DNA of 64,000 nucleotides from an uncultured Pelobacter sp. (GCA_964542535.1 CAZIUE010000010.1:82937-146936), one strand, 5' to 3'. Shown: positions 42,818 to 61,728, counted from the stretch's first letter. The notes: generated by a model not told the origin, from the sequence alone. Numbers and translations are program-made.

Positions 42818-44205
42818 GCATCAACGGCTTCCTGATCGCCGCTCCCCAGAGCGGCAGCGGCAAGACCACCGTCTCCTTGGCCATCATGGCCGCGCTCACG
42901 CGACGGGGGCTGGTGGTTGCCCCGTTCAAGTGCGGGCCTGACTTCATCGATCCGGGCTATCACCGCTTGGCCTGCGGCCACGATTCCATCAACCTGGATG
43001 GCTGGATGTGCCCGGAAACATTTGTTGCGTCCACCTTCCGTCTCCATGCCGCGGCCGCCGATTTGGCCGTGATCGAAGCGGTCATGGGGCTCTTCGACGG
43101 CCTGGGAGCCTCCCCCCGCCAGGGGAGCAGCGCCCAGATCGCCGCCATCTGCGGCGCGCCGGTGGTGCTGGTGGTCAACGCCCGCGGCATGGCGGCCAGC
43201 GCCGCCCCCCTGGTCAAGGGGTTTGCCGAGTTCGATCCCTCCGTCAGGCTGGCCGGGGTGATCTTCAACAACGTTGGCAGCAGTGCCCATGCCGAGCTCT
43301 TGGCGCGGGTCATGGCCGAGTCTCTGCCTGGAATCGCTCTGTTCGGCTGCATTCCCCGGGACGAGGCTCTCGCGATCCCTTCCCGCCACCTGGGACTGGT
43401 CACGGCGGAGGATAACCCCCTGTCACGGGAATATCTTGACCGCCTGGCCGATCTGGCCGAGAAACATCTCGATCTGGTGGGGCTGGCGGGGCTGTGCATC
43501 GATATCGCCCCCGAAACGGTGGGGGCTCCTGTCGCTTCCGCAGCGGGGGAGACTCCCGTGCGCCTGGCCGTAGCCCGGGATGCGGCCTTCTGCTTCGTCT
43601 ACCAGGATAACCTGCGCCTGCTGCGGGAGGCGGGGGCTGAGCTGCAGTTCTTCTCTCCGCTCACGGACCGCGCTCTTCCCGAGGGGAGCAGCGGGGTCTA
43701 CCTGCCGGGCGGCTACCCCGAGCTGTACGCCGAACGGCTGGCCGCCAATCTCCCCATGCTGGACTCCCTGCGTTCCGCGGCGTGGCAGGGGATGCCGCTG
43801 TACGCCGAGTGCGGCGGCCTGATCTATCTCACCCAGGGGATGGAAGATTCCCGGGGCGCACCCCTGGCCGATTTTGCCGGCATCTTTCCGGTGCGGGCAC
43901 GCATGCTTCCCCGGCGCAAGGCTTTGGGGTATCGCCAGGTGGAATTTCAGGTGGATTCCCTTCTTGGTGGCCGGGGGGAAGTTGCCCGGGGCCACGAGTT
44001 TCACTACTCGGAGATCAGTTCCATGCCGGAAGAGGTGACCCGCATCTATCGGGTGACGCGGCGGGGGAACGACCTCGGGCTGGAGGGGTACTCCCTGGGC
44101 AACTGCCTGGCTTCCTATGTGCACCTGCACTTCGGCAGCAACCCCCGCCTGGCCCCCTCCCTGGTGGCCGCCTGCAAGAGCTTTGTGACGTCCCGCATGC
44201 CATAG
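42814..44205 (+). CDS. cbiA: cobyrinate a,c-diamide synthase
   Basis: [45 protein letters not shown]. Confidence 0.92.
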
Positions 44206-44790: not shown

Positions 44791-44874
44791 GACGACGATA
44801 ATACTAAACCATTCGCGAGAATGGGACGGAAAGCCTACAGGGTCTCACCGAGACAGCCGGGTTGCCGAAATGTC
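44791..44874 (+). ncRNA. GEMM-Ib riboswitch (c-AMP-GMP / 3'3'-cGAMP variant of c-di-GMP-I)
   Basis: AATACTAAACCATTC-GCGA-GAATGGGACGGAAAGCCTACAGGGTCTC...GAGACAGCCGGGTTGCCGAAAT; A at the G20-equivalent position (44803). Confidence 0.9.
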
Positions 44875-44911
44875 CAGCACTAGACGAGATATTTTCGGCC
44901 CCGGCTTTTTT
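44856..44911 (+). terminator. riboswitch-linked intrinsic terminator
   Basis: GCCGGG..GCCGAAATGTC pairs with GATA.TTTCGGCCCCGGC, followed by T6; overlaps the aptamer 3' strand. Confidence 0.8.
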
Positions 44912-45031
44912 GCGTCCGGAGGTGTGTTGTGATGACATGGGGCGAGGAGGGTACATGAAGAATAACGACGGCAGTTTGATAACGCATGATTCGGGAGGTG
45001 GGACGACGGAAACGAGCGGAACTGGTAGTAC

Positions 45032-45123
45032 GCCTGAAAAGGGCAAACCATTCGAAAGGGTGGGACGCAAAACCACTGGTCTAAATCCTGGGACTTCAGG
45101 ACATGACGGCAGGGCTGCCGGGC
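45032..45123 (+). ncRNA. c-di-GMP-I (GEMM-I) riboswitch
   Basis: AAAAGGGCAAACCATTC-GAAA-GGGTGGGACGCAAA...GGTCTAA...GGGCTGCC; P1 GCCTG/CGGGC; G at position 20 (45042). Confidence 0.88.
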
Positions 45124-45185: not shown

Positions 45186-46211
45186 ATGAAATCATGTACA
45201 GCAGTTTCAACAAAATCAGGACTGGTAATTATCCCGGGGTTGGTGCGGGCCGCACTGTTAGCCCTTGTCGCCGCAACCCTCGTCTGCCCTGCGCGGGCCC
45301 GTGCGGGACAGGCAACCCTCGCCTGGTCCGGCACGACGGATCAGAATGTTGCCGGGTACAAGCTGTACTACAGCAACAGCTCGGGTACGTACTCACAATC
45401 TGTGGACGTTGGAAACACGACAAGTTATACTATTAAAAACCTGACTGATGGAAAAACTTACTACTTTGCCGCTGCCGCCTATGATGTATCCGGAAATCAG
45501 AGTGATTATTCCAACGAGGTGAGCAAGAGTATTCCGGTGGTTCAGTATACGGTAAACGCCGGCGCGGGAACAGGTGGGACGATATCACCTTCGGGTTCGG
45601 TGTCCGTCAGTTCAGGTGCAAGCCAGTCATTCTCCATAAGCCCCGCGACGGGGTACAAGATAGCGGATGTGGAGGTTGATGGCGCATCGATCGGTGCGGT
45701 CAGCAGCTATACATTCAGTAATGTTACCGCCAGCCATTCCATTTCCGCAACCTTCTCGGCCCAGGCGGTCTCAATTACCCCCCACTGGAACGATGCGACG
45801 ACAGCCAAAACGGCCCTGCTTTCGGCTAATCCGAATTACATGATGTGGAGCCCCGTTGTCGCGGATGCCACGGCAAAGGTAACGAGTCTGCGGGTGAGCG
45901 TCGGTCTCTACGGTACGTCATCACAGGTCAGGTTGGCGCTCTACGACAAGAGCGGCAAAAAATTGACCGAGGGGGTCGGGACCGTATCTTCGACAGGGTA
46001 CAAATCCGTCAGCGTCCCTTCCGTGAGTGTTACCAAAGGGTACACCTATTACGTGGCCGTTCAGCCATCCTCCAGCCAACTGAAGAGTATTGACTGCGGT
46101 GCGAAAACAGGAGGTTTTGCGGCAAAAAACAGTTATTCCAAGGGACTCCCGGCAACATTACCCCGTGGATGGTCAGGCGAACTGCTTACCTCGGGCATGT
46201 ACATCCAGTAG
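45186..46211 (+). CDS. secreted FN3-domain protein with InlB-B-repeat-like and C-terminal beta-sandwich domains
   Basis: AAGGAG SD; signal peptide ending ARA; ATLAW..GYKLYY..YYFAAAAYD.SGNQS.YSNE; YTV..AG.GG.ISPSG...GY.I.DV.VDG repeat. Confidence 0.8.
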   Translation: MKSCTAVSTKSGLVIIPGLVRAALLALVAATLVCPARARAGQATLAWSGTTDQNVAGYKLYYSNSSGTYSQSVDVGNTTSYTIKNLTDGKTYYFAAAAYDVSGNQSDYSNEVSKSIPVVQYTVNAGAGTGGTISPSGSVSVSSGASQSFSISPATGYKIADVEVDGASIGAVSSYTFSNVTASHSISATFSAQAVSITPHWNDATTAKTALLSANPNYMMWSPVVADATAKVTSLRVSVGLYGTSSQVRLALYDKSGKKLTEGVGTVSSTGYKSVSVPSVSVTKGYTYYVAVQPSSSQLKSIDCGAKTGGFAAKNSYSKGLPATLPRGWSGELLTSGMYIQ

Positions 46212-46318
46212 CGGTAACGAGCATACTCGTTGTTGCAACGAAAACCGGCGCGGGCTGTGGTTTCTTGCCCCGTGAAGAGAAGTCGAACCAGTGAAGCTTG
46301 ATTGTGAGGAGCATATCC

Positions 46319-47935
46319 ATGAAACGCAAAAAAAATGTCAGCAAGCCGGGAATCCTTTTGTTTACACTCCTGCTGTGCGGCGCGACAACCCATGTTTGGG
46401 CGGCAACCTATTATGTGGACGCCGTAAATGGTAACGACAGCTATTCCGGCACCCAGACGGCACCCTGGCGTTCCATTGCGAAAGTCAAGGCAACCGCGCT
46501 TAAGGCCGGGGATGCCGTGTATTTCAAGTCGGGGGGGAGCTGGGACGAGTTGCTTGTGCCTGCTTCGGGAGTGAGTGGAACACCGGTGGTGTATGGAGCC
46601 TATGGCACGGGAAACAGGCCGGTTATCCGTGGGTTAAGCGCTGATAACAAGTCCTATGTGCGCATCGACGGCCTCAGCTTCAAAAACGGCAGTTATAATC
46701 ATCCGGTTCTGATAACCAACTCGTCCCATCACATAAGTATTTATAATTGCGACATCATTGCCGATACTTCCAATTCGACCTGGGCAGCCCTGTATATTTT
46801 GAACAACTCCCATCATAACGAGGTTGTCGGCTGTACCATTGAGCATCTCAATACCGGCCGGCAATCCGATGCCGTTAATTTGCGGCTGAACGCCAATTAC
46901 AATCTTATCAAGAACAACAAGATCGGCTCCGCTACCCACTACGCCCTTTCCCTGGAAGGAAACAATGCCACCTATCCCGGGTATACATGCAACTACAACA
47001 TCATCATGAATAACGTAATCAACAACCCTAATGGAGCCCAGATGAGCCTCCAGTCTGAGGCGTCTAATAACGTCGTGGATAGCAACGTCATCACCGGCGG
47101 CAAGAGTACCACGTACTGCGCCAACCTGCCGAGAGCCTTTAAAAACGTGAGCAGGAACAACATTATACGCAGGAACGTCATTAGGGACAACATGGAGACC
47201 ACGGGGAGTGGCCTGGGAACGGAGGTGTATGCCTATACCGACTATCCCGCCAACATCGCAACGGGCAATCGTATTTACAGCAACCTGATAACCAATATTT
47301 ACAGGTACCCCATCGTTATGGCCACAAACGGGGATGCGGGGGCGACAGCCTACAACAATATATACAAAAATAACGTTATTTATAATAACGTGTCATCGTA
47401 CCAGGCCGTGATTCAAGCCCACTCGGCGATCAAGGATAACTATTTTCAGAACAACCTGTTTTATCGCTCTGGCGTTACGAACGTGCTGAGTATCGGTGGT
47501 GTAGGGAAAAGCGTTGCTGGTGCCGAATCAGGCGATCCCCTGCACTGGAAGGGTAATATCCAGAAGGACCCGTACCTCGGTGTCGATTACCAGCCGTTGT
47601 CCGGTTCTCCCTGTGTTGATGGAGGTGAACATCTGGCTTCTGTCACGAGCGCAAGTGGTTCCGGCATGACGTTAACGGTATCTGATGCCAGGTATTTCAC
47701 CGATGGCTATGGTGTTGTCCAGGGAGATACGATACGGGTCGGAAAAATGACGGCAACGATTTCATCAATAAACTACTCTACCAATACCATTACCCTGAAG
47801 GAGTCGATCGCGTGGCAACAAGGTGATCCGGTGAATCTGCCGTTTTCGGGCAGCAAGCCGGATATCGGGGCATACGAGTTTGCCGATCAGGGGTCAACGC
47901 TTCTCCCCCCCCTGAATCTGAAAGTTATCCAGTAA
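46319..47935 (+). CDS. secreted right-handed parallel beta-helix protein (polysaccharide lyase / adhesin-like)
   Basis: Signal peptide; YYVD...GND..SG....PW.SI; Asn-ladder repeats; GSPCVDGG...PDIGAYEF; terminal PPLNLKVIQ. Confidence 0.8.
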   Translation: MKRKKNVSKPGILLFTLLLCGATTHVWAATYYVDAVNGNDSYSGTQTAPWRSIAKVKATALKAGDAVYFKSGGSWDELLVPASGVSGTPVVYGAYGTGNRPVIRGLSADNKSYVRIDGLSFKNGSYNHPVLITNSSHHISIYNCDIIADTSNSTWAALYILNNSHHNEVVGCTIEHLNTGRQSDAVNLRLNANYNLIKNNKIGSATHYALSLEGNNATYPGYTCNYNIIMNNVINNPNGAQMSLQSEASNNVVDSNVITGGKSTTYCANLPRAFKNVSRNNIIRRNVIRDNMETTGSGLGTEVYAYTDYPANIATGNRIYSNLITNIYRYPIVMATNGDAGATAYNNIYKNNVIYNNVSSYQAVIQAHSAIKDNYFQNNLFYRSGVTNVLSIGGVGKSVAGAESGDPLHWKGNIQKDPYLGVDYQPLSGSPCVDGGEHLASVTSASGSGMTLTVSDARYFTDGYGVVQGDTIRVGKMTATISSINYSTNTITLKESIAWQQGDPVNLPFSGSKPDIGAYEFADQGSTLLPPLNLKVIQ

Positions 47936-48019
47936 CAGACTGCACTATTCCATCCACGGTGTTCGTGTCGTAACGAGGGGAATCTGAATTGATTCCCCTC
48001 GTTTTGTTTGACGACACCG

Positions 48020-49162
48020 CTACGCCGGGTCGGCATGAACAAGCATACTCAGGGCATAGAACATCCAGGCCTGTGACCACCGCATATAGGGGATGCGGTT
48101 CGTATACCATCGAGTTTTCTGATAGTAAAAATAGCCATGTTCATCCTGCATGTTGTCGATTGCCCATTCAGCTATGTCCTGTGCAAGGTGTATGCTGTCG
48201 CTGCGATGGCGGGACAAGGTGACAAGCGTAATTATCCCCTGCGCGGAACAGTGAATATCAATCGGATAAAGGGAGTCGTTATAGTATTTGGGGCACCCGT
48301 TGTTCAGCCAGAAGGTTCTCAGGTAGTAGTCGTAGGCATTGGTGAACTCCCGTTGCCACTGATATTCTCCGGTATATTCCATCCACTGTCCCAGGGAAAC
48401 GAGGTTGAAGCCGGTATGGAAGCTGTCGATGAATGGCCGTTTTTCAGCGTAAGGCCACGAATAATCTCTGCCCAGGGCCTGTAACGCAAAGAGCATCGCT
48501 TTTTTTGATTTCTCGTAGAGAACCCGGTCCCCGCTTTTATGAAAAACTCTTGCGAGCGCAGTGGCCGCGAGCATGTTTATGTTGTAGACGATGCTTCGAC
48601 TGCCCGGCATGTAACGGAAGCAGAGTGTTTCGCTATTCTCGAAGAAAATGAGGTTGTCGAGGACGAACCTGCAAGCGCGTTCAGCGATCTCCAGATAATT
48701 TCGGTCTCCCGTACGGTCGTAATAGTCCAGTAAAGCGTTGACGGAGAAGACGGTGGCAACCATGTTGGGCGTGTGTTTCGGAGTCAGAAATCTCCTCGCC
48801 TGCCAGTCAAAATTATATCCCCAACACGGGGCCTGGTAACCGGGTGAAGCCAACCCCATGAGAAGTTCGATAAGCTGTTTCGCCTCATCGTTTTTTTCCG
48901 CCAGCAGCAAACCGGAGATAAAAAGTGCTACTCCCTTCGGGTTGAAGCCTTTTGGAACGATGGTGATGTTTCTGAAATTGACTGGTGAGCGTTTGAACAG
49001 TTGAATCCATGCCAGACGGAGCAGGTAGGAATGGTGGAAAAGCGGGTTGTCGACAATCCGTGCATTGAGTCCGTCGTAGTTGTCCCAGCCCTGATAACGC
49101 TCCTTCCGGCAATAGGCGTACAGGGCGTTAAAGGAGTTTTGGATTTTACGTGTTTTGTTCAT
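48020..49162 (-). CDS. EPS-cluster protein of probable (alpha/alpha)6 barrel type, function unknown
   Basis: WGYNFDWQ, PN.VAT, IDSFHTGFNL, YPIDIH, DEHGYFYYQ, YMRWSQAW. Confidence 0.65.
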   Translation of the reverse strand: MNKTRKIQNSFNALYAYCRKERYQGWDNYDGLNARIVDNPLFHHSYLLRLAWIQLFKRSPVNFRNITIVPKGFNPKGVALFISGLLLAEKNDEAKQLIELLMGLASPGYQAPCWGYNFDWQARRFLTPKHTPNMVATVFSVNALLDYYDRTGDRNYLEIAERACRFVLDNLIFFENSETLCFRYMPGSRSIVYNINMLAATALARVFHKSGDRVLYEKSKKAMLFALQALGRDYSWPYAEKRPFIDSFHTGFNLVSLGQWMEYTGEYQWQREFTNAYDYYLRTFWLNNGCPKYYNDSLYPIDIHCSAQGIITLVTLSRHRSDSIHLAQDIAEWAIDNMQDEHGYFYYQKTRWYTNRIPYMRWSQAWMFYALSMLVHADPA

Positions 49163-49189
49163 GGCACCACACCCCGATCCGGCCCGGAT

Positions 49190-50254
49190 TCAGGCCAGCA
49201 CGTCGCGGAAATATCCATTCAGCCTCGTTACAACGGTGCGTATTTCATAGTTCGTTTTCGCCTTAAGTCTGTTGTTCGAGGATATGGTTTCGCAGGCCGC
49301 GTTATTGTTGAGTAACTGCCTTATTTTACGTGCGAAATCTTCAGGCTCGCAGGACGGTACAAGGAAGCCGTTTTCCCGCTCGATGATAATTTCCGGTATG
49401 GCCGCAACGGGCCTGGATACGATCACCAGCCCCGCGCCCATACCCTCAAGTATGCTGTTGGGCATTCCTTCTCCATAACTGGTGGGGAAAAGCATGATTC
49501 CGCACCTGTTCAGAACCTGGCTTTTTTTCTCCTGCTCCAGCCAGCCGGTAAAGAGTATGGTCTCTTCCAGTCCACGGGATGAAACGTACTGCTGCAACTG
49601 TGGCAGCAATGGCCCGTCTCCAACCATGTACAGTTTTATGTCAGGGAATTCTGTAGCAAGAATTTCAACCGTTTTGACTGCGGTAAAACAGCCTTTGCCC
49701 TCGGCAAAGCGGGAGAGATACATCAGGTTTGCATAGTTGGTGTGTGTCTCTTCCCCCGTTTCTTCGTAGGTTGTTGTTTCAAGTATGATGCTGTGGGGAC
49801 AATATCCCCACGAGATCAGCAGGTCCCTGTAGTGACGAGATAAAACCAGGCACTTGTCGGGATTGAAGACGAGGCGGATCAGGCTCCGACACTTCCGGTT
49901 GACGAAGTTTGTGGTTTCCTCGTTCCATCCGCGAAAGAACACCATGGTTTTCTTGTTGAATACTCTTTTAGCCAGGATGTGGTAGATGCCGTCTCGGACG
50001 AGTGACTTTACGTCAAAAGAAGGGTTTATAACTATCAGATCATGCCGTTTGAACCGTGCAAGCAGGCTGGTCGCGTCCAGGATACCTGTGTATACGCGTC
50101 GTGCGAGACCTGGTGCGGAGCCGCACCTGCCGACGGGAAAAAAAGACACGTCGACAGTATCGGATCTGAAGTGTTTATTTACGAGCGAATAATAGTGTGC
50201 CACGCCCCCTCTTTCAGATAGGTGAGGGCAAAGAATCAAGACGCTTTTGGGCAT
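49190..50254 (-). CDS. GT4 glycosyltransferase
   Basis: LSRF..GKG, GDGP, FPTSYGEGMPNSILEGM. Confidence 0.88.
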   Translation of the reverse strand: MPKSVLILCPHLSERGGVAHYYSLVNKHFRSDTVDVSFFPVGRCGSAPGLARRVYTGILDATSLLARFKRHDLIVINPSFDVKSLVRDGIYHILAKRVFNKKTMVFFRGWNEETTNFVNRKCRSLIRLVFNPDKCLVLSRHYRDLLISWGYCPHSIILETTTYEETGEETHTNYANLMYLSRFAEGKGCFTAVKTVEILATEFPDIKLYMVGDGPLLPQLQQYVSSRGLEETILFTGWLEQEKKSQVLNRCGIMLFPTSYGEGMPNSILEGMGAGLVIVSRPVAAIPEIIIERENGFLVPSCEPEDFARKIRQLLNNNAACETISSNNRLKAKTNYEIRTVVTRLNGYFRDVLA

Positions 50255-50279
50255 GATCCCTCCCTTTCCGGCGTCACGC

Positions 50280-51494
50280 TCATAATGATCTGAATAACTC
50301 CACAAGCAGCCTGCCGTTGTTCAAAGGATTGAAATACATACGGCATTTCTCTCTGCCCGAGCGGCCGATCCGGATCGCATGGTCCTGTTGTGTGATGAGA
50401 AACCTGATGGCCTCCTCGATGTCCCGTACATCCCCTGGTGTCGTGAGCAGTGCGTCCTTCATATGCTCCAGGTACCGGGTTACGTCGCTGTTTCTTGATG
50501 CGATAACCGGATTTCCCGTTGCCAGGTACTCGCCAAGTTTGAAGGGAAAGCCGGCATTGGCGAAATCGGTGCTCGTTCTTGTCATGCACAAGATATCCGC
50601 GTCACGGAGAAAATCGTAGAACTGCTCATCATCGAGATACCCTACCAGGTGTATTGCCGGGTTCCTCTCGATTCTCTTCCTGATATGGGCCATGCGTTCA
50701 TCACTTCCCTTTCCGGTAAGGAACAGCTTGATATCCTCCGTGGTGTCCCGCACGGATTCGAAGGCGTCTATGAGGTCGTCCACTCCATCCTTGGTGGCAA
50801 AACTGCCCGAGTATACGAGTCTGACCGGTGAATGAAAGCAGTGCTTATGCGGGCCGTCATCTGCTTGTGCCGACACCGGGATCAGTCGTATGGATTCCCT
50901 GTTGCGACATAACGTGGAATATTTTTTGTACAGGTGCGTTGAAATGACGACGACCCCATCGGCGATGAGGTGTAAAAAACGCTCGAATAATGAAATGGAT
51001 TTTACTTTTATCCTGGAAAGACGGGACAACCCTCCGCCAAACACGGCATAGTCCTCGACGATATCAAAAACTACTCTGTATCCGAGCAATTTGGCCGTTA
51101 CGACGAACACGATGTTTTCGATACTCGGGCTGCCATAGCAAAAGCATATATTCTTGCTCTTCCGTACTTTCCAGCGCAGCAGGCAGATGAATCCTTCCCA
51201 CAGGTAGAGCGGAAGACGCCAAACCAGACGCACATCTGGCGTCAAACCGCTCCCGATTTTTCTGTACAGTGTCCCTCGGTACCATCCCGACGATTCTTGG
51301 GGTGACACCTCCTTCGCGCCCCGATCCAACAGCAACAGGGTAACGGTGAATCCATGGCTTTGCAGAGCATCAATGAAATGCTGCACTCGTTTCGTTGCGG
51401 CCATTCCCTGGGGGTAGGAAAATCTTCCCACAATGACAACGTTTATGTCTTCTCCCGCAGGAAGAGGGCGCGTCGATAGGGACTCATGATTCAT
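50280..51494 (-). CDS. GT4 glycosyltransferase
   Basis: YSGSF..KDG, FPFKLGEYLATGNPVI; start uncertain (51494-51515). Confidence 0.85.
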   Translation of the reverse strand: MNHESLSTRPLPAGEDINVVIVGRFSYPQGMAATKRVQHFIDALQSHGFTVTLLLLDRGAKEVSPQESSGWYRGTLYRKIGSGLTPDVRLVWRLPLYLWEGFICLLRWKVRKSKNICFCYGSPSIENIVFVVTAKLLGYRVVFDIVEDYAVFGGGLSRLSRIKVKSISLFERFLHLIADGVVVISTHLYKKYSTLCRNRESIRLIPVSAQADDGPHKHCFHSPVRLVYSGSFATKDGVDDLIDAFESVRDTTEDIKLFLTGKGSDERMAHIRKRIERNPAIHLVGYLDDEQFYDFLRDADILCMTRTSTDFANAGFPFKLGEYLATGNPVIASRNSDVTRYLEHMKDALLTTPGDVRDIEEAIRFLITQQDHAIRIGRSGREKCRMYFNPLNNGRLLVELFRSL

Positions 51495-52782
51495 TGTCGT
51501 CATCTTGAGCGTCATCGGCGAGATAGCCGTGGCATCTGCCGGCCAGCAGACAAAGAAAATAGCTGTAAGGGGTTAAAGATGGATGGGAATAAGTGCTTAC
51601 CCCAAGGCAGGCAATCCCCCACAGGATCAGCAATGCCGAGGCAGCGGCATCGTCTTCCCGGGCTCCCCTGAAGTATGCCCGGAATCCGGGGACGATAATC
51701 AGGATGATGTAGGGGATAAGGATGGGCACGCCACCGATAAACGCCATCCACACGAACGAATTGTCGAAATACTGGTACTCCTCGTCGCCGAAAAACCAAG
51801 TGCCGTTTGGCCCTCGCCCCAGAATCAAATCGGAAGCCGGAACCTGATCGAAAAACTCCAGGTACTGGCCGGTGCGGGTGTCGTCATACATGCGCTCTCC
51901 CAGCATGCCGAAGGCTGTACCAACTTCTTTCTGGAACAGCACACCGGCGACCAGAAGTAAAGCCAGTATGGACAAGATGACTTTGCCGCGGACAAAACGT
52001 GGTTCATCACCCTCGTCGCTGGAAGGGGACCTGATGAACAAAAAAGCCGTGAGCAGGAGAATTGCCATGAGAATCCATGAACGGGTCTGGGTAAAGATGG
52101 CGGTACACAGGAATGCGATATAGGGAAATGCCCGGACGTATAGTCTCCATCCTGTTGCTTTTCTCGATGTCAGCAGGGTCCAGCCGGCAAACCAGGCCAG
52201 AACGATCATAATCAGCACGGGGCCGGATTCGAACCTCACATCGATTTCCCTGTGCGTTGCAACGGCATACATTGCCAGGGCGGCCGTAAGGTATGAGAGG
52301 GTCGTGCTGACCGATCCGAGGAGACGCCATATCGTTTGTTTCATGCCGGCAAAGAGCAGAATACAGGAAAGCCAGACCAGGGGGCCGGTCGCTCCCAGCG
52401 CCTTCCAGGAAAGATAGTCTTTCAGTTCGTAGGTGACGAGTGCCCAGCAGATACTTGCCGTCTGCATCGTCCAGAACGCAATTTTGGCCGACGGGCACAG
52501 CCTTCTGTATTGGCCGGAAACGGCCGCCAGCATACCCGCGCCAATGACCGACACTATGCCCGTTGCATGCAGGAGGTAGTAGAGCGCCGGCTTGCTCTGC
52601 GGATCGTGGTAGGCGTTATCCGGGTTGATGCCGACGGTCAGCGCCACCATCATCGCCGCGCACCATGATGCAATCAGGGCGATGGAGGCGAGCAGCGAGA
52701 CGGTTCCGTCGAAACGGTACTCATCGTCGTCAGGGAGATAGTCCATACATCCTTCCGCATGCTCGTTGACCTGTTGTGACAT
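51484..52782 (-). CDS. wzy: Wzy-like polysaccharide polymerase / O-antigen-ligase-like membrane protein
   Basis: About 11 TM segments, TQTRS, periplasmic loop DTR...ILGRG..G...DN; position in cluster. Confidence 0.65.
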   Translation of the reverse strand: MSQQVNEHAEGCMDYLPDDDEYRFDGTVSLLASIALIASWCAAMMVALTVGINPDNAYHDPQSKPALYYLLHATGIVSVIGAGMLAAVSGQYRRLCPSAKIAFWTMQTASICWALVTYELKDYLSWKALGATGPLVWLSCILLFAGMKQTIWRLLGSVSTTLSYLTAALAMYAVATHREIDVRFESGPVLIMIVLAWFAGWTLLTSRKATGWRLYVRAFPYIAFLCTAIFTQTRSWILMAILLLTAFLFIRSPSSDEGDEPRFVRGKVILSILALLLVAGVLFQKEVGTAFGMLGERMYDDTRTGQYLEFFDQVPASDLILGRGPNGTWFFGDEEYQYFDNSFVWMAFIGGVPILIPYIILIIVPGFRAYFRGAREDDAAASALLILWGIACLGVSTYSHPSLTPYSYFLCLLAGRCHGYLADDAQDDDNES

Positions 52783-52816
52783 GATGACCTCACTCGTGGC
52801 TTTGCCCATTGTCGGG

Positions 52817-54133
52817 CTATCCCCTTCTCGAAAACCGCACCAGGGCAAGCAGCAACAGGCTCGTCCCGATGGAATAACTGTGCAGGTGAGCAAGCGCCAG
52901 TGTCCGGGAACATGCGGCCATTCCGGCAAAACATAACAGCAGCAAGAGTCCGCCACGCACGATGTCCAGGAAAAACATCTGTTTCGACTGCTCGCCAGCC
53001 CATAATCCTGCTGAGGCTATCGTCCACGCCGCACTCACGCAACTGGTAAGGGCAATAATCCGCAAGACGTCATACCCTCTGGCAAACTCGGGCCCATACC
53101 AGACCATCAGTTGTTCGGAAAACAGATACACCGGAAACGACAGTAGCAGCACAAAAAGCGTACCCATTCCCCCCGCCCCCAGAAGAGTCTTCCTGAAACC
53201 GCTTCTGTTGCCGGTCGCATACAGGTTCGACAGGAGGGGGACCGTAACCTGGAAAATCCTCTGGGGAATGAAGATGATAATATTCTGGAGCCGTTGCGCC
53301 GCGTTGAACAGGGCGAATTCCGGGACTCCCCCGGGTTGGCGCACCAGCAGTATCCCGGCGAACCAGTTGGTCAGGTTCATGGCCATTCCGCTCAGCCAGA
53401 CCAGTGCGGACATCCGCAGGATACTACGTTCTCCCCAGGCTCCGTGATAGCTTATTGCGATGGAGAAGCCCGCGCACTGTGTTCTGATGTACCATTGTCC
53501 GAAGATACAGCCGACCAGGCTTATGATGGCGAATGCAACGATTGCTCCGTACAGGCCGGCGGAGTACGCCCCCATGATAACGACGGGCAGGAGAAACAAT
53601 GCCTGCCAGATGCTGATCCGGGCACTTCGGTTAAATGCTTCAAGTCCCGCCAGGATGCGCAACTGGATGCTGTTAATCATCTCACAGATGAGCCACAGCG
53701 CAGCGAGTCGCAATTCCGTAGAAATGCTGCTTCCCGGTAGAAGCTTTCTCGAAATACTTTGCGAAAACAGAGCCAGACAGGCTCCCGCCATACATGCCAT
53801 GGCACAGGTAAACGCCAGGGAAAAACCTATGATGCGTCCGGCTCTTTTCGGGTCGGTGGTTCTGGTTCTTGCAACATACGTGGTGCTTGAGAGGCCTATC
53901 CCTGCCTGTCCAAAGCCGCTTAGCATCAGTATCGTGCCCTGAACAACCGCCAGTTTCCCGAAATCCGCAATGCCAAGGAAGCGCGCCGCCACGATCCCCG
54001 CAAGAAACTGCGCCCCCTGTCTCAAGGATGATCCCAGCACGACCCATGCCATGCCGCGAGCAAAGCGCTCGCGCAACGAGTTGTCCGGGAAGTGCCGTGA
54101 AAACAGCTGGCCGAAGAAGCGGAGTACTCCCAT
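52817..54133 (-). CDS. wzx: Wzx oligosaccharide flippase
   Basis: ARFLG...FG motif, multi-TM MOP-type pattern, YGPEF. Confidence 0.8.
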   Translation of the reverse strand: MGVLRFFGQLFSRHFPDNSLRERFARGMAWVVLGSSLRQGAQFLAGIVAARFLGIADFGKLAVVQGTILMLSGFGQAGIGLSSTTYVARTRTTDPKRAGRIIGFSLAFTCAMACMAGACLALFSQSISRKLLPGSSISTELRLAALWLICEMINSIQLRILAGLEAFNRSARISIWQALFLLPVVIMGAYSAGLYGAIVAFAIISLVGCIFGQWYIRTQCAGFSIAISYHGAWGERSILRMSALVWLSGMAMNLTNWFAGILLVRQPGGVPEFALFNAAQRLQNIIIFIPQRIFQVTVPLLSNLYATGNRSGFRKTLLGAGGMGTLFVLLLSFPVYLFSEQLMVWYGPEFARGYDVLRIIALTSCVSAAWTIASAGLWAGEQSKQMFFLDIVRGGLLLLLCFAGMAACSRTLALAHLHSYSIGTSLLLLALVRFSRRG

Positions 54134-54325
54134 GGCTGTTCATCGCTTTCCGTGTGCTGACACAAAGGGAGGAACGTTGCTTTTCGTTGTTTCACGGCCA
54201 CGGATCAGCAGCCCCATGGCTGGGCTGATGGTGTCAAATCCGTTCCGGAAGCACATTGGTGGTGTCACCGGGGAGAAACGTTCCCCTTGTTCAGTGAACG
54301 CGGCAGGCCCGTTGCACTGTTATGT

Positions 54326-55387
54326 CTAACTGCCGGGGCTTCTTTCCAGCAATTCCAGGATCTTCTCGACGATCGCTTTCAGCGCTGGACGGTTCTCCCG
54401 GTCTGGGGAAGCAGGTCGTGCCCATTTGCGGAGAGTCACCCGGGTGTTCAGGTCCTCCGCGTTTTCCAGAAGCGTCAGCCGGCCACTCTTAGACAGATAC
54501 CTGTCCACCGCGCCTATCTCTCCTCTGAATATGCTGTAAACCGGTACACCCAACGCCGCTGCCTCGCGATTCATGGTACCGCCACCACTGATAACGAGAT
54601 CCGAATACCAGATCAGGTTGAGTCCGTCCAGCACCCGGTCGGGGATCACGACTTTCCGCTCACTGATCAGGGCAGGCCATGTTTTGCCTATGTAATCCGT
54701 CTGGTGGTCGTTTCTGGGTAATATCACCATGCGGAGATTGTCGATTCCGGCGAGCCAGGTGATGGTGGCATGAAACAGATCGTCACTCTTGGGATTATGG
54801 TAGTGGGCTTCGTTTGCGGGAGGGCGGATGGTGACTACGATCTCGTTTTCGGAGATGCCCAGTTCCGACAGTATGCCCGCTTGTGGGATGAAAGCGGGAA
54901 CGTAGACATCTTCCTTTATGCCGGGATAGGTGCTGATACGGGAGGGATTCCGCCAATGCTGTTCAGCGGGGATGGTATCCGGGACCATCAGCCAGTCTGA
55001 ACTGAGAAACAAGGGCATTTTGTTGGCATGCTCGTAATCTGAGAGCTGGAGCGCGGGAATGTGCAGCATCTTTGCCGCGAGCAGCTGGGAGCGGGAACCG
55101 TGGGCAACTGCAAGGGAGGGAAGGGGGGTACCCATGCTTTGTTTCATCTGCAGTGCCCGTATCACGGCCCCCAGGATCTTGAACAGTTTGTGCTTTCCGT
55201 AGTGATGTCCGATTCTCTGGTAGGTGAGACCGTACAGGTCGGCCAGTCCGCAGACCTGGAAGCAGTCGCGTGCGGTAATGATTACCCCGTAACCATATCC
55301 CCGCAGCTCGTCGATGATCGGCTTGAAGAAGGGGACATGGGGTGAATTTTCCAGGTCAATCCACAGCGTTTTGTTTTTCGCGTTCAT
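54326..55387 (-). CDS. DUF354 family (GT-B-like) protein
   Basis: WIDL.NSPHV.FF.P, GGGTMNREAAALG.P, GAVD.YL. Confidence 0.85.
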   Translation of the reverse strand: MNAKNKTLWIDLENSPHVPFFKPIIDELRGYGYGVIITARDCFQVCGLADLYGLTYQRIGHHYGKHKLFKILGAVIRALQMKQSMGTPLPSLAVAHGSRSQLLAAKMLHIPALQLSDYEHANKMPLFLSSDWLMVPDTIPAEQHWRNPSRISTYPGIKEDVYVPAFIPQAGILSELGISENEIVVTIRPPANEAHYHNPKSDDLFHATITWLAGIDNLRMVILPRNDHQTDYIGKTWPALISERKVVIPDRVLDGLNLIWYSDLVISGGGTMNREAAALGVPVYSIFRGEIGAVDRYLSKSGRLTLLENAEDLNTRVTLRKWARPASPDRENRPALKAIVEKILELLERSPGS

Positions 55388-55475: not shown

Positions 55476-56030
55476 CTACTCCACCCGTTCGAGCCATTCC
55501 TCGCGCCAGAAGAAGAAACAGCTGCGGTCACAGGCTCCGAAATCCCTGGTCCCTTGGCAGATGACTCCCTCCAGAATGACGATCCCCCTGCATTTCTTGA
55601 CACGGTAGTCCCGCTCGTCGAGGAATTTATCCACCCGCTTCAGGACGTTCTGTCTCGTGCCGCAGTATGGCCACATCTCCTGCATGAACGAGCAGCCGCC
55701 CAGCTGGTGCCAGTTATTCAGGGTTTGCATGATTTCCTGTTGCGACTTGACGCGCACGGTATCCCCGGCTTGCAGAGGAGGGGCTGCCGGTCCGCGGGCC
55801 TCGATGGAACGGTCGCTTTTCCATTGGAAAAGCAGTTTGCGGAGGAAATAGTAGCGCCTTTTCAGTATCCGTTTGATGCGGTTCCGAAGCTGCCAGAGTC
55901 TTTCGAAGATCCCCTGTCTCTCCACGATATCCGGGATGGAAAAAATCTGGCAGGGGTGCTGCGCGCCTGAACGCGGGGAGGGCGTCATGTCGGGCCGAGC
56001 TTGTACGCTTTTGTGGTTTTTCGTGGGCAT
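55476..56030 (-). CDS. conserved Cys-rich hypothetical protein
   Basis: L.AGD.VRVKS..EI, FM.EM..YCG, LEG..C.G....CDRSCFFFW.E.WL. Confidence 0.7.
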   Translation of the reverse strand: MPTKNHKSVQARPDMTPSPRSGAQHPCQIFSIPDIVERQGIFERLWQLRNRIKRILKRRYYFLRKLLFQWKSDRSIEARGPAAPPLQAGDTVRVKSQQEIMQTLNNWHQLGGCSFMQEMWPYCGTRQNVLKRVDKFLDERDYRVKKCRGIVILEGVICQGTRDFGACDRSCFFFWREEWLERVE

Positions 56031-56085
56031 GGCTGGACTCCAACGGAGAGTTCGGCTCGTCATGACGAGCCATTGCGGTGGATGT

Positions 56086-57198
56086 TCACAGGTAGTTGTA
56101 AAATAAGCGTCCCAGCTGGATCAGCAGGGTGTCGGGCATGTGGGGACAGACTTTCCTCAGGATGCGGTACTGGAATGAACGCTCTTTTGATTCATAGTCG
56201 TCGTTTTCCTGTCCTGGACAATAACTGTGAGTAATATCATCGAGTTTCGTTCCCCAGTGTTTTTTGAATTCCATCAAGGCACTGTTGGTGGGGGAGGTGG
56301 CGCCGAAGTCGAAAACAGCGTACCCCTCCTCCCGGGCGGCCTTGATGGCTTCCCAGAACAGGTAGTGATTGGGGCTTATGTCGCGGCAGCCGGCATCCCA
56401 GGCAAGGAATTCAGCGGAAACGCGGTCCCGGAATTTGAACAGGATCAACCCCGACAGGATGCGCTGTTGCTGCTTGGCGAGCAGGAGTGACATGGTGCCA
56501 CGTGCGCCGAATTCCCGCCAGAGTGAGCTCAGGAAGCGGTATGGTTGCGGAGGAAAACCAAGACGTTTTCGCGTCTTGACGAACAACCTGAAAAACGATC
56601 TCAGGTCAGACTCATCCTGGCCGGCAACCAGGCTCAGGCCGCTGCTTGCTGCCCGGGTGATTCTCTGCCTGACGCAGGAGCGATGGAACGAACGGAACAG
56701 CTCTTCTTGGCTCTTGTCCAGATCGATGGAGTGGGTTTTCAGGAAATGGTGCCTGCTGAATCGATCGTCGTTCAGCAGCGCAGTTGCTTCAAGACTCCGA
56801 ATTTCAAGTGACGGCACGCTCCTCTGCCGATGCAACCCGAGGGCGGCATCCACGAGGGTGCACAGGTCGGCGGCGGATGAAACAAGGGGATCGCACAGTG
56901 TCGCGTGGGGTATGCTTATCAGCCGGCGACCGGAGACCCAGCCTCTCCGCTCGAACAGCGGCAGAGCCGCCCTCAGGCCGGTCTCGTTCTGATCGGACAG
57001 AGCCAGGCAGTACCCCTTCACATTTGAGAAACTCGCCTCAAGCGCTTTTTTCCAGCCGGCAGTATGGGCGATCTTCCCGAAGGGGTGTCGTTCCACGAAG
57101 GCATCCCAACGTGGGTCGCTGAGCGGATCGAGCAGAAACACTTCCCCGTTGCCGTTCCCCTGTATGTCCAGACCTGGTGCAGCTCCGTGAACAGCCAT
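56086..57198 (-). CDS. FemAB-like GNAT family protein
   Basis: WDAFVE.HP, SPNHYLFWEAI, FDFG.TSP.N..L.EFK.HWG. Confidence 0.85.
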   Translation of the reverse strand: MAVHGAAPGLDIQGNGNGEVFLLDPLSDPRWDAFVERHPFGKIAHTAGWKKALEASFSNVKGYCLALSDQNETGLRAALPLFERRGWVSGRRLISIPHATLCDPLVSSAADLCTLVDAALGLHRQRSVPSLEIRSLEATALLNDDRFSRHHFLKTHSIDLDKSQEELFRSFHRSCVRQRITRAASSGLSLVAGQDESDLRSFFRLFVKTRKRLGFPPQPYRFLSSLWREFGARGTMSLLLAKQQQRILSGLILFKFRDRVSAEFLAWDAGCRDISPNHYLFWEAIKAAREEGYAVFDFGATSPTNSALMEFKKHWGTKLDDITHSYCPGQENDDYESKERSFQYRILRKVCPHMPDTLLIQLGRLFYNYL

Positions 57199-57206
57199 CA
57201 CCGCAC

Positions 57207-58139
57207 CTACCTCTCTCCGGGGGATCGCTCTCTCCAGAAACGGGCCATCTCCCGCGGCAGTACATGCCAACAGTGGTTTCCGTGGCGCTCCCTGACGTAT
57301 TCCAGGAAGCGTTTGTAGTGTTCCACGCAGTAGCTGGAGCAGTTGCGTGTCTGCCCTGAAAAATCCATGTAATCGGGATGGGTGTTTATAAGCGCCATGC
57401 CGCCATGCTCGCAAATCCAGTCCAGTTTCCGTTGCCAGAGATCAATGGTTCTCTCCTTGAAGAGAACGAACAGGGTGAAATCCTGGGGGAGCGTATAAGG
57501 TAATTCCACGTATCCCATGCGCTTGCCGCCGGGATTTGCCGGTACCCAAAACGGGAAGATCGTCCGCATGCCGTCGGGTTGAGGCTCAAAGGGGTCGGTG
57601 TCGAATGTCGAGGCATCGTAGGCAATGTCCAGGTCGTGAAGCCACGTAAGGTTGTGATACATGCAGGGGGACCGGAATCCCACCGCTCCCCATTTCTTGA
57701 GATACCCATTGATTACCGCAGCCTGAAACGCGAACTTTTCTCTCGATTCGTACATGCTCCGATCGTGCCAGAGACCGTGGATTCCCACCTCAAAGCCGTC
57801 GTTCTCCAATCGGCTGCGCACCTCAGGGGAGACGTTGTTGGTGATGACGAAGTTGAACGACGACCGGAATCCCAGGTCTTTTTCCATGTCGGCCAGCAGT
57901 CGGCATGTTTCCTGTCCCCTCGCGGATTCCACATCGTGGGTCAACACCAGGGCGAAGCGCTTGTTCTCGGGCCATCCGTCCCAGTTGTCGGGAATCGTGC
58001 CCGCCCGTCTGTCGATGGGCCACGCGTTTCTGTGAAGCCATCGCCTGAACAGGTTGATCCGGCTTCTGACGATGATCTGCACCGGCCTCGGGATAAACGG
58101 CTTGAGCTGATAGTATGAATCCACAAATACCCGTTTCAT
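57207..58139 (-). CDS. polysaccharide deacetylase (NodB/CE4-like)
   Basis: LTHDVE, EVGIHG..HD, GFRSP, YDAS, ELPYTL.QD, THPDY. Confidence 0.82.
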   Translation of the reverse strand: MKRVFVDSYYQLKPFIPRPVQIIVRSRINLFRRWLHRNAWPIDRRAGTIPDNWDGWPENKRFALVLTHDVESARGQETCRLLADMEKDLGFRSSFNFVITNNVSPEVRSRLENDGFEVGIHGLWHDRSMYESREKFAFQAAVINGYLKKWGAVGFRSPCMYHNLTWLHDLDIAYDASTFDTDPFEPQPDGMRTIFPFWVPANPGGKRMGYVELPYTLPQDFTLFVLFKERTIDLWQRKLDWICEHGGMALINTHPDYMDFSGQTRNCSSYCVEHYKRFLEYVRERHGNHCWHVLPREMARFWRERSPGER

Positions 58140-58166
58140 CCCGAGTCCTTTTCATCCTCGCGCCGT

Positions 58167-58433
58167 TCAGGCTCCTGCCCGCTCTCCGCCGGGACGCAAT
58201 TTGCCTTCGACGAATGCCGCGACCCTGTTGATGGAGTCGAGGTTTTCCGGGGTGAGCTCCTCGTCGGAAACGACGATGGCATACTTCTCTTCGATGAACG
58301 AGACCAGCTGCATGATCCCCGTTGAATCGATCAGCCCTTCTTCCAGAAAGGAGCAGTCGTCCGTCAGGCCGTGCTCTTCTCCGAAGAGATAACTGTCTAC
58401 TATAAAGGCTCGTATCGTTTCACTGATGCCCAC
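58167..58433 (-). CDS. acyl carrier protein
   Basis: SFLEEGLIDSTG (phosphopantetheine Ser), PENLDSI; GTG start after GGAGG. Confidence 0.88.
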   Translation of the reverse strand: MGISETIRAFIVDSYLFGEEHGLTDDCSFLEEGLIDSTGIMQLVSFIEEKYAIVVSDEELTPENLDSINRVAAFVEGKLRPGGERAGA

Positions 58434-58468
58434 AGGATTGTCGCCTCCCCCCATGTCGCTTCCGGGTG

Positions 58469-59467
58469 TCACGGTGTGTGTGAAAGTATACCATCTTCCA
58501 CCAGAAGCGGTGGAAGATGGAGATAACGGGTGGTGCCGCGTTTGGTGTCGATGTCCCGGTAGATCGTTTCAACCTGCTCCGTTGTCATACCCAGTGCATC
58601 GGCTATTTCGTTCGTCGGCACCTGGTTGGTTCTGCCGAAGAGGCAGAGATCCATCTGTCCGTAGGGGAGAGAAAAGTAGAATTCATCCTGGGTCTGCTCC
58701 AGAGAATAGGTGTCGGTGGTTGGCGTGCGTCGCCTGATTTCGTCCGGTATACCGAAATACTCCCCCAGCTGGTACACCTGTGACTTGTACAGATGGGCAA
58801 TCGGCTTGATGTCCGCGGCTCCGTCACCGAGTTTTACGAAGAATCCCTGATCGTACTCCAGGCGATTGGGGGTTCCGGCAACAGCATAATTGAGACGGTC
58901 CGCATGGTAGTATTCCAGCATTTTCCGTATGCGCTGTTTGAAGTTGGTGGCGGCGACTATTTCCAGGTACGGCTCAAGGGAGAGGCGCTTTCTGATGGGC
59001 GCTCCCGCCTCCGGCCGGGCTACAAGGTAGAAGGAGGCGTAGGCCCGCCGCTCCAGAACGTTTGACAGCACGATCTTGGATCGCCAGCCCGGGCCGTATT
59101 CGGGGATTGCCCGGCGGACCGCGGAATCGTACTTGTGGTAGAATCCGACCGCATCGAGTATGGGGGTGATCTCTTCCGTGAACGTTGCTATGCCCAGATG
59201 GGCCGCCACCATGCTGCCCAGGCGCAGGGAGTCGGCGGAGGAGTCCCGCTCGGGCATCATGAGACCGAATACCCTGTCCGGGCCCAGCGCCCTGACCGCC
59301 AGCGCCGCGGTTACGCTGCTGTCGATTCCGCCGGAGAGCCCGATCACCAGCCCGCGCCGTTTGAACTGCCGCAGCATCGTCTCGCGGATCATGCGGCTGA
59401 TCCGCGCGGTTTCTCCTTCCGGGTCAATGCGCAACGCCTCGCGCAGATCGTGCACCGTCCGTTTCAT
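58469..59467 (-). CDS. NadE-like ATP-dependent amide ligase (cluster paralogue)
   Basis: GLSGGIDSS PP-loop, NFKQRIR, GTPNRLE, FFVKLGDG.ADIKPI.HLYK.QV; no glutaminase domain. Confidence 0.85.
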   Translation of the reverse strand: MKRTVHDLREALRIDPEGETARISRMIRETMLRQFKRRGLVIGLSGGIDSSVTAALAVRALGPDRVFGLMMPERDSSADSLRLGSMVAAHLGIATFTEEITPILDAVGFYHKYDSAVRRAIPEYGPGWRSKIVLSNVLERRAYASFYLVARPEAGAPIRKRLSLEPYLEIVAATNFKQRIRKMLEYYHADRLNYAVAGTPNRLEYDQGFFVKLGDGAADIKPIAHLYKSQVYQLGEYFGIPDEIRRRTPTTDTYSLEQTQDEFYFSLPYGQMDLCLFGRTNQVPTNEIADALGMTTEQVETIYRDIDTKRGTTRYLHLPPLLVEDGILSHTP

Positions 59468-59519
59468 TGTCATCCTTCTCCGTTTACCTGTGTAGGGGAC
59501 CTGCGTCGCGCGGCGCCCG

Positions 59520-60041
59520 TTACTGGCGGTGCCGGTAGCTGCCGTCCGGGTCGTCTCCATACCGTTTCAGGCCGAACAGAAAATGCCGGTAATCCACGGT
59601 ACCGTCATGTATCAGCGGATGGGTAATCTGCGCCAGGGGAGCGCACGGCGCATGGCCGTACAGGACGCCGGGGGGCACGTTTCTGGTTACGACGCTTCCG
59701 GCGGTCACCACCGCCCCTTCGCCAATGGTTACGTCATTGAGGATGATGCAGCCGGGGCCGATGTACGCGTTATTCCCGATGCATACCTTGCCGGCTTTTT
59801 CGTGCGTTCGGTATCCCCCCAGGTAGAAATGGGCGAATATGGTGCATCTGAGCCCTATTATGACGTTGTCTCCGATGGCCACGTTTTCGGGGTGGAGCTC
59901 GTCTATGTACACGTACTGGCTTATCCAGACCCCGGAGCCGATCCGGACTCCCCGTTTCCTGTGCAGCCATGGCCGCAGCGAGTAGCCGCCCGGAACGACC
60001 ATGGCCAGCTTGCCGAGCAATCGTTTCTGAAGTGCCATCAT
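59520..60041 (-). CDS. hexapeptide-repeat (LbH) acyltransferase
   Basis: IGSGVWI, IGDNVIIG, IGNNAYIG, IGEGAVV.AGSVV..NVP. Confidence 0.85.
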   Translation of the reverse strand: MMALQKRLLGKLAMVVPGGYSLRPWLHRKRGVRIGSGVWISQYVYIDELHPENVAIGDNVIIGLRCTIFAHFYLGGYRTHEKAGKVCIGNNAYIGPGCIILNDVTIGEGAVVTAGSVVTRNVPPGVLYGHAPCAPLAQITHPLIHDGTVDYRHFLFGLKRYGDDPDGSYRHRQ

Positions 60042-60100
60042 GGTGAACTCTCCGCTGAACACTCCCCGCGTTGACTGAGATGAGTCGAAGCCGCTCCCGG

Positions 60101-61657: not shown

Positions 61658-61728
61658 GGGGGCACCTCCGCGTGGTGCTGGCATACTTTTACGGCCGGCC
61701 CGGTTCGGGCTGACCTGTTCGTACAGCC

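What the first reader, a model, noticed from the sequence alone, without database searches (positions are those of the whole stretch)
45306..47935. Split FN3 domain: possible donor-strand docking between two co-transcribed secreted proteins
Seen: the mature 45186 protein starts directly at FN3 strand B (ARA|GQATLAW) and has no PxxPxNL strand A before or after the domain. The next protein ends, after its PDIGAYEF cap and a short linker, with LLPPLNLKVIQ-stop (47900-47935), which reads like an isolated FN3 strand A. Established: FN3 begins P-x-(A/P)-P-x-N-L-x-V, and beta-strand complementation links subunits in pili. Inference: the C-terminal peptide is a docking tag that completes the partner's FN3 in trans. 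This would be a modular extracellular assembly system I do not recognise as described.
Basis: partly seen in the sequence, partly recalled or inferred. Interest (0 to 1): 0.75.

Follow-up and report, generated by a model that had tools for sequence, protein, structure and literature searches.

The report
Split fibronectin domain as docking tag
Two neighbouring genes encode predicted secreted proteins, one starting with a fibronectin-type domain that lacks its first strand and the other ending in a short, family-wide conserved tail resembling that strand, so the tail likely clips a putative sugar-cutting enzyme onto its partner like a natural tag and catcher.

Summary
Observation confirmed. Gene 45186-46211 encodes a signal peptide followed directly by an FN3 domain lacking strand A (Pfam positions 15-82; model aligns to residues 16-91 of a solved FN3). 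Gene 46319-47935, a beta-helix, ends in LLPPLNLKVIQ-stop. Alone this tail is weak, but it is a family-wide terminal motif (57 of 119 homologues strict; 6 of 3626 internal windows), stays terminal after extra domains, and is replaced in tail-less relatives by dockerin, T9SS-like or intact FN3 modules. Tailed relatives sit beside strand-less FN3 genes (12 of 12 versus 0 of 6) and occur only in genomes holding such domains (10 of 17 versus 0 of 20). Acceptors include lipoproteins and lectin stalks, and many lie behind cyclic-dinucleotide riboswitches, as here. Against: acceptors outnumber tails (3:1 in this genome), no tail-acceptor covariation, tree-corrected test not significant, no docked model obtained (complex prediction unavailable). 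Best reading: a non-covalent split-FN3 tag/catcher (0.68). Nine literature searches found no description. This scan proposed the same idea earlier on other genomes. New variant of donor-strand complementation; binding untested.

The parts
44793..44869 (+). c-di-GMP-I (GEMM-I) riboswitch aptamer 1
   Evidence: Rfam RF01051, 48.7 bits, gathering 35
45032..45122 (+). c-di-GMP-I (GEMM-I) riboswitch aptamer 2, in tandem
   Evidence: Rfam RF01051, 76.9 bits
45186..46211 (+). Gene for the acceptor protein P0001 (341 aa): signal peptide, strand-A-less FN3, InlB B-repeat, unnamed C-terminal domain
45186..45305 (+). Predicted signal peptide ending ARA; homologues end AxA at the same place
   Evidence: sequence read by eye; homologue contexts
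45306..45536 (+). FN3 domain with strands B to G only (putative catcher)
   Evidence: Pfam fn3 profile 15-82; six-strand model; aligns from residue 16 of solved FN3
45546..45764 (+). Divergent InlB B-repeat (Flg_new_2), likely stalk
   Evidence: PF18998, 24.8 bits, cut-off 23.6
45771..46208 (+). C-terminal domain without a Pfam match; malectin, H-lectin or dockerin lie at the equivalent place in other acceptors
46319..47935 (+). Gene for P0002 (538 aa): signal peptide, right-handed beta-helix, PDIGAYE cap, linker, tail
   Evidence: PF13229 below cut-off; N-terminal likeness to 7V6M and lacto-N-biosidase 6KQS
47900..47935 (+). C-terminal strand-A-like tail LLPPLNLKVIQ-stop (putative tag)
47972..48003 (+). 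Intrinsic terminator-like hairpin closing the two-gene unit
   Evidence: 13 pairs plus T run; z -6.9
48020..55387 (-). Convergent polysaccharide genes (two GT1-type glycosyltransferases, Polysacc_synt flippase-like, DUF354); context
   Evidence: Pfam

Best explanation
The beta-helix protein ends in a conserved strand-A-like tail that likely inserts into the groove of a strand-A-less FN3 domain after export, most likely that of the upstream protein, and so would join a putative polysaccharide-acting enzyme non-covalently to a stalk with a probable sugar-binding end. Shown: the domain architecture, the terminal conservation of the tail, its co-occurrence with strand-less FN3 genes, and the riboswitches upstream. 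Inferred: export and signal cleavage, co-transcription, binding, enzyme activity. The joint would rebuild, from two chains, the architecture that some relatives encode in one chain. The tag looks generic rather than pair-specific, so the two other strand-less FN3 proteins of this genome could also catch it.
For: Tail at the very end in 57 (strict) to 83 (loose) of 119 homologues found with a tail-free profile; strict background 6 of 3626. It stays terminal after extra domains in 7 longer homologues, and tail-less ones carry dockerin-like, T9SS-like or three intact FN3 domains there. In 20 regions fetched from this order, 12 of 12 complete genes with a strand-less FN3 gene directly upstream have the tail and 0 of 6 without such a neighbour do; 2 were cut by contig ends. 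Phylum sample: tail in 10 of 17 genomes with an acceptor-type match, 0 of 20 without (Fisher p 6e-5; base rate 126 of 401). Unrelated non-beta-helix secreted proteins with the tail lie near acceptor genes (L415, L416). In L066 the upstream partner is a lipoprotein of linker plus strand-less FN3 only. In five tandem FN3 arrays read, the first repeat lacks strand A while later ones keep it (P0008, P0009, P0014; P0243, P0365). Groove-lining hydrophobic positions are kept in strand-less domains as in intact ones. Gene order is acceptor then tail in 20 of 25 pairs, the reverse of a simple fission. FN3 strand exchange is physically known (4M6A title; FREX passage in PMC7140400).
Against: This genome has three strand-less FN3 proteins and one tail by three searches. 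Of 76 acceptor loci only 5 have a tailed neighbour (2 of them records already in the query) and 6 carry their own tail; four lipoprotein acceptors have no tail within about 6 kb. In metagenome loci only 3 of 14 regex-tailed beta-helix loci show an acceptor, though many contigs are short. Some proteins carry strand-less repeats back to back (P0064, P0082, P0260). Strand G column 74 is often Tyr or Lys in strand-less domains (27% and 26%, Lys here) against Ala or Val in intact ones, which may shield the core without a partner. No covariation of tail and acceptor over 25 pairs (Mantel r 0.01, p 0.44). The tree-corrected test is not significant: 3 to 4 supported pairs, none in the opposite direction.
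Confidence: 0.68

Rival explanations
1. The six-stranded FN3 is a stable stand-alone module, and the tail is a sorting or recognition signal read by some other envelope protein; the two co-occur because both belong to the same matrix-building lifestyle and regulon.
For: Acceptors outnumber tails; strand-less repeats occur back to back; bulky Tyr or Lys on strand G; the tail occupies the slot where sorting signals sit; no covariation. A truncated FN3 fragment (anastellin) exists as a reagent (PMC8471655 passages).
Against: It leaves unexplained why the signal is an FN3 strand A, including the variant PVLSL type in L071 and L072, why tailed genes sit directly behind acceptor genes across different cargo bodies, and why tail-less paralogues in the same genomes (L061, L068, L075) lack the acceptor neighbour.
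Confidence: 0.17
2. The tail packs back on the beta-helix protein itself (cap or the small beta-rich insert before the cap) or links copies of it.
For: Short linker after the PDIGAYE cap in most homologues. P0002 was not folded, so this was not tested directly.
Against: The tail moves to the new end when extra domains are added, is lost in close homologues (P0132 at 77% identity, L068), and ends unrelated proteins.
Confidence: 0.07
3. Tail and strand-less domain are relics of repeated truncation or fission of genes carrying intact FN3 domains, without interaction.
For: Intact beta-helix-FN3 fusions exist (P0202) and intact FN3 of the same subfamily exist (L017, L020).
Against: Stops fall 1 to 4 residues after the strand in most cases and positions P, N, L, R, V are conserved; gene order is the reverse of fission in 20 of 25 pairs; none of 20 genomes without acceptors shows the tail.
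Confidence: 0.08

Closest known systems
PilC/PilY1 C-terminal tail docking on type IV minor pilins (PMC13711793 and PMC12918778, abstracts read)
   Same: A peptide of about ten residues at the extreme C-terminus of a large secreted protein is proposed to complete a partner's beta-sheet and so attach it.
   Different: The acceptor there is a minor pilin in a pilus initiation complex; here it is an FN3 domain found on many different stalks and lipoproteins, with no pilus genes beside it.
Donor-strand pili: type V (PMC13655056, abstract), CPR Pam pili (PMC13278184, passages), cannulae (PMC12518558, listing only), chaperone-usher pili (recalled)
   Same: An incomplete beta-sandwich completed by a strand from another chain.
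   Different: Each pilin has both groove and donor and polymerises, with protease or chaperone help in some systems. Here groove and donor lie on two different proteins, so this pair can form only a one-to-one joint. Short natural proteins with both parts exist elsewhere and would be the polymer-like form.
Cohesin-dockerin modules of cellulosomes (recalled)
   Same: Works like it: a small terminal module on varied enzymes that would bind a receiver on anchors or sugar-binding scaffolds; dockerin-like domains replace the tail in 5 homologues.
   Different: Different folds; the tag is about ten residues; no many-catcher scaffold was found (the largest arrays have intact internal repeats).
FN3 strand swapping and fragment exchange in engineered or animal FN3 (4M6A title; PMC7140400 and PMC8471655 passages)
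   Same: Same fold; the N-terminal strand can be swapped between chains and fragments can be exchanged.
   Different: Those are engineered, crystal or unfolding events of whole domains; here the split is encoded in two bacterial genes.

Membership tests
Fibronectin type III domain (PF00041) | Sequence match over the curated cut-off | tested here: met
   31 bits, cut-off 25
Fibronectin type III domain (PF00041) | Seven strands A to G within one chain | tested here: not met
   Six strands; alignment to solved FN3 starts at residue 16; no strand-A motif in the chain
Donor-strand complementation systems | An incomplete sandwich with conserved hydrophobic groove | tested here: met
   Strand B and G core positions as hydrophobic as in intact domains; groove inferred from the missing strand, not measured on coordinates
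Donor-strand complementation systems | A free terminal strand of matching pattern on another chain | tested here: met
Donor-strand complementation systems | The strand binds the groove in trans | not tested
Donor-strand pili (chaperone-usher, type V, Pam) | Subunit carries both groove and donor and can polymerise | tested here: not met
   P0001 has no tail and P0002 no FN3
Cohesin-dockerin system | Cohesin and dockerin domains in the pair | tested here: not met
   No such Pfam or NCBIfam match in P0001 or P0002
c-di-GMP-I (GEMM-I) riboswitch | Rfam RF01051 above gathering score | tested here: met
   76.9 and 48.7 bits
GEMM-Ib (cGAMP-sensing) subclass | Selective cGAMP binding | not testable with these tools
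   By recall the first aptamer looks like the Geobacter cGAMP type and the second like the c-di-GMP type; the defining paper was not held
PL9 pectate lyase / GH136 lacto-N-biosidase | Full-length match with catalytic residues | tested here: inconclusive
   Only the N-terminal part matches (PelN 31 bits of 740; 7V6M and 6KQS); catalytic residues not examined

The most novel reading that the evidence does not exclude
A widespread, undescribed plug-and-socket system for building bacterial surfaces and matrix: any secreted enzyme ending in an FN3 strand A clips onto any protein that begins or ends with a strand-less FN3 (lipoprotein anchors, lectin stalks, dockerin or sorting-signal adaptors), while small proteins with both parts act as extenders or fibres; in Geobacter-like bacteria the sockets are switched by cyclic-dinucleotide riboswitches. 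It would be a minimal natural counterpart of cohesin-dockerin and a ready-made ten-residue tag/catcher.
Probability: 0.4. Interest if true: 0.88.

Novelty: new variant of a known kind. Interest (0 to 1): 0.72.

Why it matters
It would give a function to a very common but ignored architecture (FN3 starting at strand B right after the signal peptide; 126 of 401 sampled genomes of this phylum have such a match) and to an unannotated C-terminal motif on many secreted proteins, explaining how anchorless matrix enzymes are retained or paired with binding modules. In this lineage it ties a protein-assembly mechanism to the cyclic-dinucleotide regulon that controls surface attachment. The test is cheap: one 77-residue domain and one 11-residue peptide. 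A tight pair would also be a small orthogonal tag for protein engineering.

Tried and rejected
AlphaFold2 on a natural 109-residue protein that carries both parts (P0438, 22-row alignment) left the tail unpaired, pLDDT about 70: no support for docking in cis, silent on docking in trans. A genome-wide DNA pattern for the tail matched 347 of 401 genomes and was too noisy to compare groups. Follow-up of 15 genomes (89 loci from their 209 listed matches, plus 16 fetched regions) found real tails in G263, G595, G081 and G088 and none in the examined matches of five acceptor-negative genomes or of G020, G022, G025, G047, G304, G483; the strict pattern catches only about a quarter of known tails, so this shows no absence. 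The strand-A matrix alone does not single out the tail. Mantel test negative. Independent-pairs test underpowered, with long branches. Sequence search of the PDB gave only intact FN3 proteins among the 60 shown of 138. The search of 50% representatives was filled by long arrays and gave no many-catcher scaffold among the 5 read in full. RNA runs: only contigs, partly from relatives, which cannot show transcription or co-transcription. BFVD search with the two-part model gave unnamed phage proteins only. No NCBIfam model covers the tail. Literature: searches found no paper on a naturally split bacterial FN3; the library lacks most subscription papers, and no supplements were read.

Full report
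Anatomy. Two + strand genes lie between a cobalamin-type gene ending at 44205 and a convergent polysaccharide cluster, in a stretch of lower GC. Two c-di-GMP-I aptamers precede them at 44793-44869 and 45032-45122. P0001 (45186-46211) is a signal peptide, an FN3 match at Pfam positions 15-82, an InlB B-repeat and an unnamed domain. P0002 (46319-47935) is a beta-helix with only N-terminal likeness to 7V6M and lacto-N-biosidase and ends LLPPLNLKVIQ-stop. No terminator-like site lies between the genes; a strong one follows. Close homologues are labelled Geobacteraceae and Geomonas by their sources, so a Geobacter-like host is inferred.

The missing strand. The model of residues 41-117 has six strands and aligns to solved FN3 domains from their residue 16 on. 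No strand-A motif occurs elsewhere in P0001. This is a family trait: in 76 loci from other genomes the matched domain follows a signal peptide or a plain linker, by eye without strand A. Among 120 short homologues, 23 have a lipobox-like start, 22 end in a PWIPLLLL-type signal, 3 carry dockerin-like repeats, and 13 were flagged with a tail of their own, one of them a false flag by eye. In several tandem arrays only the first repeat lacks strand A; in others strand-less repeats follow each other (P0064, P0082, P0260). Core positions of strands B and G are as hydrophobic in 204 signal-adjacent and 192 linker-adjacent strand-less domains as in 218 intact ones, but one strand G position is often Tyr or Lys instead of Ala or Val (classes set by regular expressions).

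The tail. Alone it is unremarkable (rank 26 of 10,731). A profile of 11 bodies cut before the tail retrieved 119 other proteins among the best 120 of 653: 57 end in the strict motif and 83 in a loose one that includes a few false calls; strict background is 6 of 3626 internal windows and 3 of 2105 long ORFs of this genome, loose background about 6 to 9%. The consensus is L/P-x-P/A-P-x-N-L-R-V with a stop 1 to 4 residues later. In P0139, P0159, P0167, P0187, P0189, P0203 and P0220 the tail sits behind extra domains; in P0173, P0177, P0178, P0191, P0223 a dockerin-like domain stands there, in P0217 and P0228 a T9SS-like domain, in P0202 three intact FN3 domains. In L061 the same beta-helix body is fused straight to B-repeats without FN3.

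Co-occurrence. Within the order, 27 of 239 genomes matched P0002; 20 regions were fetched. All 12 complete genes with an acceptor gene directly upstream have a tail (shortened in L063 and L067, PVLSL type in L071 and L072); none of 6 regions without acceptor shows one; 2 are cut (one of two beta-helix genes of L080 was not printed). Three of the six tail-less genes lie in genomes whose other copy has the acceptor neighbour. These genomes are kin. In a phylum sample of 401 genomes, 45 matched the beta-helix profile and 126 the acceptor profile at 1e-14, used as a proxy for the strand-less type. Forty regions from 38 genomes were read; G000, G173, G174, G121, G457, G490 and G621 were left out, and G392 was dropped as open-ended. 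Tails, called by eye (three regex false hits removed, one miss added), occur in 10 of 17 acceptor-positive and 0 of 20 acceptor-negative genomes; in 5 of the 10 the acceptor is within about 6 kb. On a weakly resolved tree the tail changes at least 8 times; independent pairs never go the opposite way but are too few for significance. Of 67 metagenome loci (64 printed), 14 have a regex tail and 4 more by eye; 3 of these have an acceptor beside them, and no tail-less locus does. Searches that did not use the beta-helix found further cases: tailed non-beta-helix proteins next to or near acceptors (L415, L416), a tailed beta-helix behind an acceptor (L424), and a both-parts protein ahead of an acceptor (L423).

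Against. This genome has three acceptors and one tail. In this family 83 of 123 genomes match the FN3 query (intact domains included) but only 7 match P0002. Only 5 of 76 acceptor loci have a tailed neighbour. Tail and acceptor sequences do not covary over 25 pairs. No docked model was obtained. So either the tag is generic and many sockets are filled from afar or stay empty, or the six-stranded domain simply folds alone; these are not exclusive.

Regulation. GEMM-I aptamers lie in 10 of 20 FN3 loci scanned and in 7 of 10 further loci, including ahead of this genome's second acceptor gene on C35. In G. sulfurreducens GEMM-Ib riboswitches, sometimes in tandem, control surface and electron-transfer genes (PMC6456294 passages); a GEMM riboswitch precedes an FNIII gene, KN400_1971, a mutation hotspot in long-term anode cultures (PMC13194489 passages), and GSU1945 is named among riboswitch transcripts (PMC8835794 passage). 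Whether those genes encode strand-less domains was not checked.

Mechanism. Shown: architecture, conservation, co-occurrence, riboswitches. Inferred: both proteins are exported; cleavage exposes strand B at the N-terminus; the tail inserts its Pro, Leu and Val side chains where strand A normally lies, giving enzyme-FN3-stalk-binding domain as one unit. P0001 has no visible anchor, so this pair would be a soluble or matrix-bound heterodimer; with lipoprotein acceptors the cargo would be cell-bound. Confidence 0.68.

Known systems and novelty. It would work like PilC/PilY1 tail docking and donor-strand pili in mechanism, and like cohesin-dockerin in purpose, but fails membership of each (membership table). 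Nine searches found no description of a naturally split bacterial FN3. The scan's own earlier notes propose the same tag on other genomes; they are unchecked AI notes, seen after my reading was written down, and are not counted as support. Verdict: new variant of a known kind, interest 0.72.

Noticed in passing
window 44793-45122: Tandem GEMM-I aptamers of unlike type; by recall one cGAMP-like and one c-di-GMP-like, which would make a two-signal gate. The same tandem is kept in L002, L003, L063, and three aptamers occur in L064 and L069.
   Followed up: partly
window 46211-46236: An 11-pair hairpin right after the first gene's stop, without a U run; could stabilise the upstream message and set unequal amounts of the two proteins.
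   Followed up: no
G000:C4:222732-224990; L010-L015, L018, L021-L025, L029: An acceptor whose reading frame begins with about 230 residues of repeats resembling the N-terminal c-di-GMP-binding part of pilus ATPases (recalled), fused ahead of a hydrophobic segment and the strand-less FN3; possibly a membrane-spanning, signal-sensing socket.
   Followed up: no
G000:C35:57-3389 (L295): The second acceptor gene has a GEMM-I aptamer upstream and lies near an ORF that looks like an exosortase (recalled motif).
   Followed up: partly
P0412, P0425, P0438, P0450, P0464, P0479, P0480, P0485 and others; L423:4306-4731: Small secreted proteins made of a strand-less FN3, a short linker and the tail; candidates for head-to-tail fibres. 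The single-chain model leaves the tail free.
   Followed up: partly
P0403, P0407, P0415, P0418 and 18 more: A recurrent C-terminal PWIPLLLLDD-type ending on short acceptors (22 of 120), likely a sorting signal; not identified.
   Followed up: no
L160, L161, L171, L275, L416: Loci with two different tailed secreted proteins side by side; several end in a YPHPL motif before the tail.
   Followed up: no
window 47905, 47908, 47923: In one contig of a relative (run X6) the three listed differences inside the tail codons are all synonymous; the list was cut (73 differences not shown), so this is an anecdote.
   Followed up: no
G426, 13 of 15 matches: A near-identical 32-base DNA element repeated on many contigs, hit by the tail pattern out of frame; probably a repeat or mobile-element end.
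   Followed up: no
window 55476-63771: Further - strand cluster genes: asparagine-synthase-like, AMP-binding, NAD-synthase-like, deacetylase-like and GNAT-like ORFs (labels read by eye), typical of polysaccharide decoration loci.
   Followed up: no
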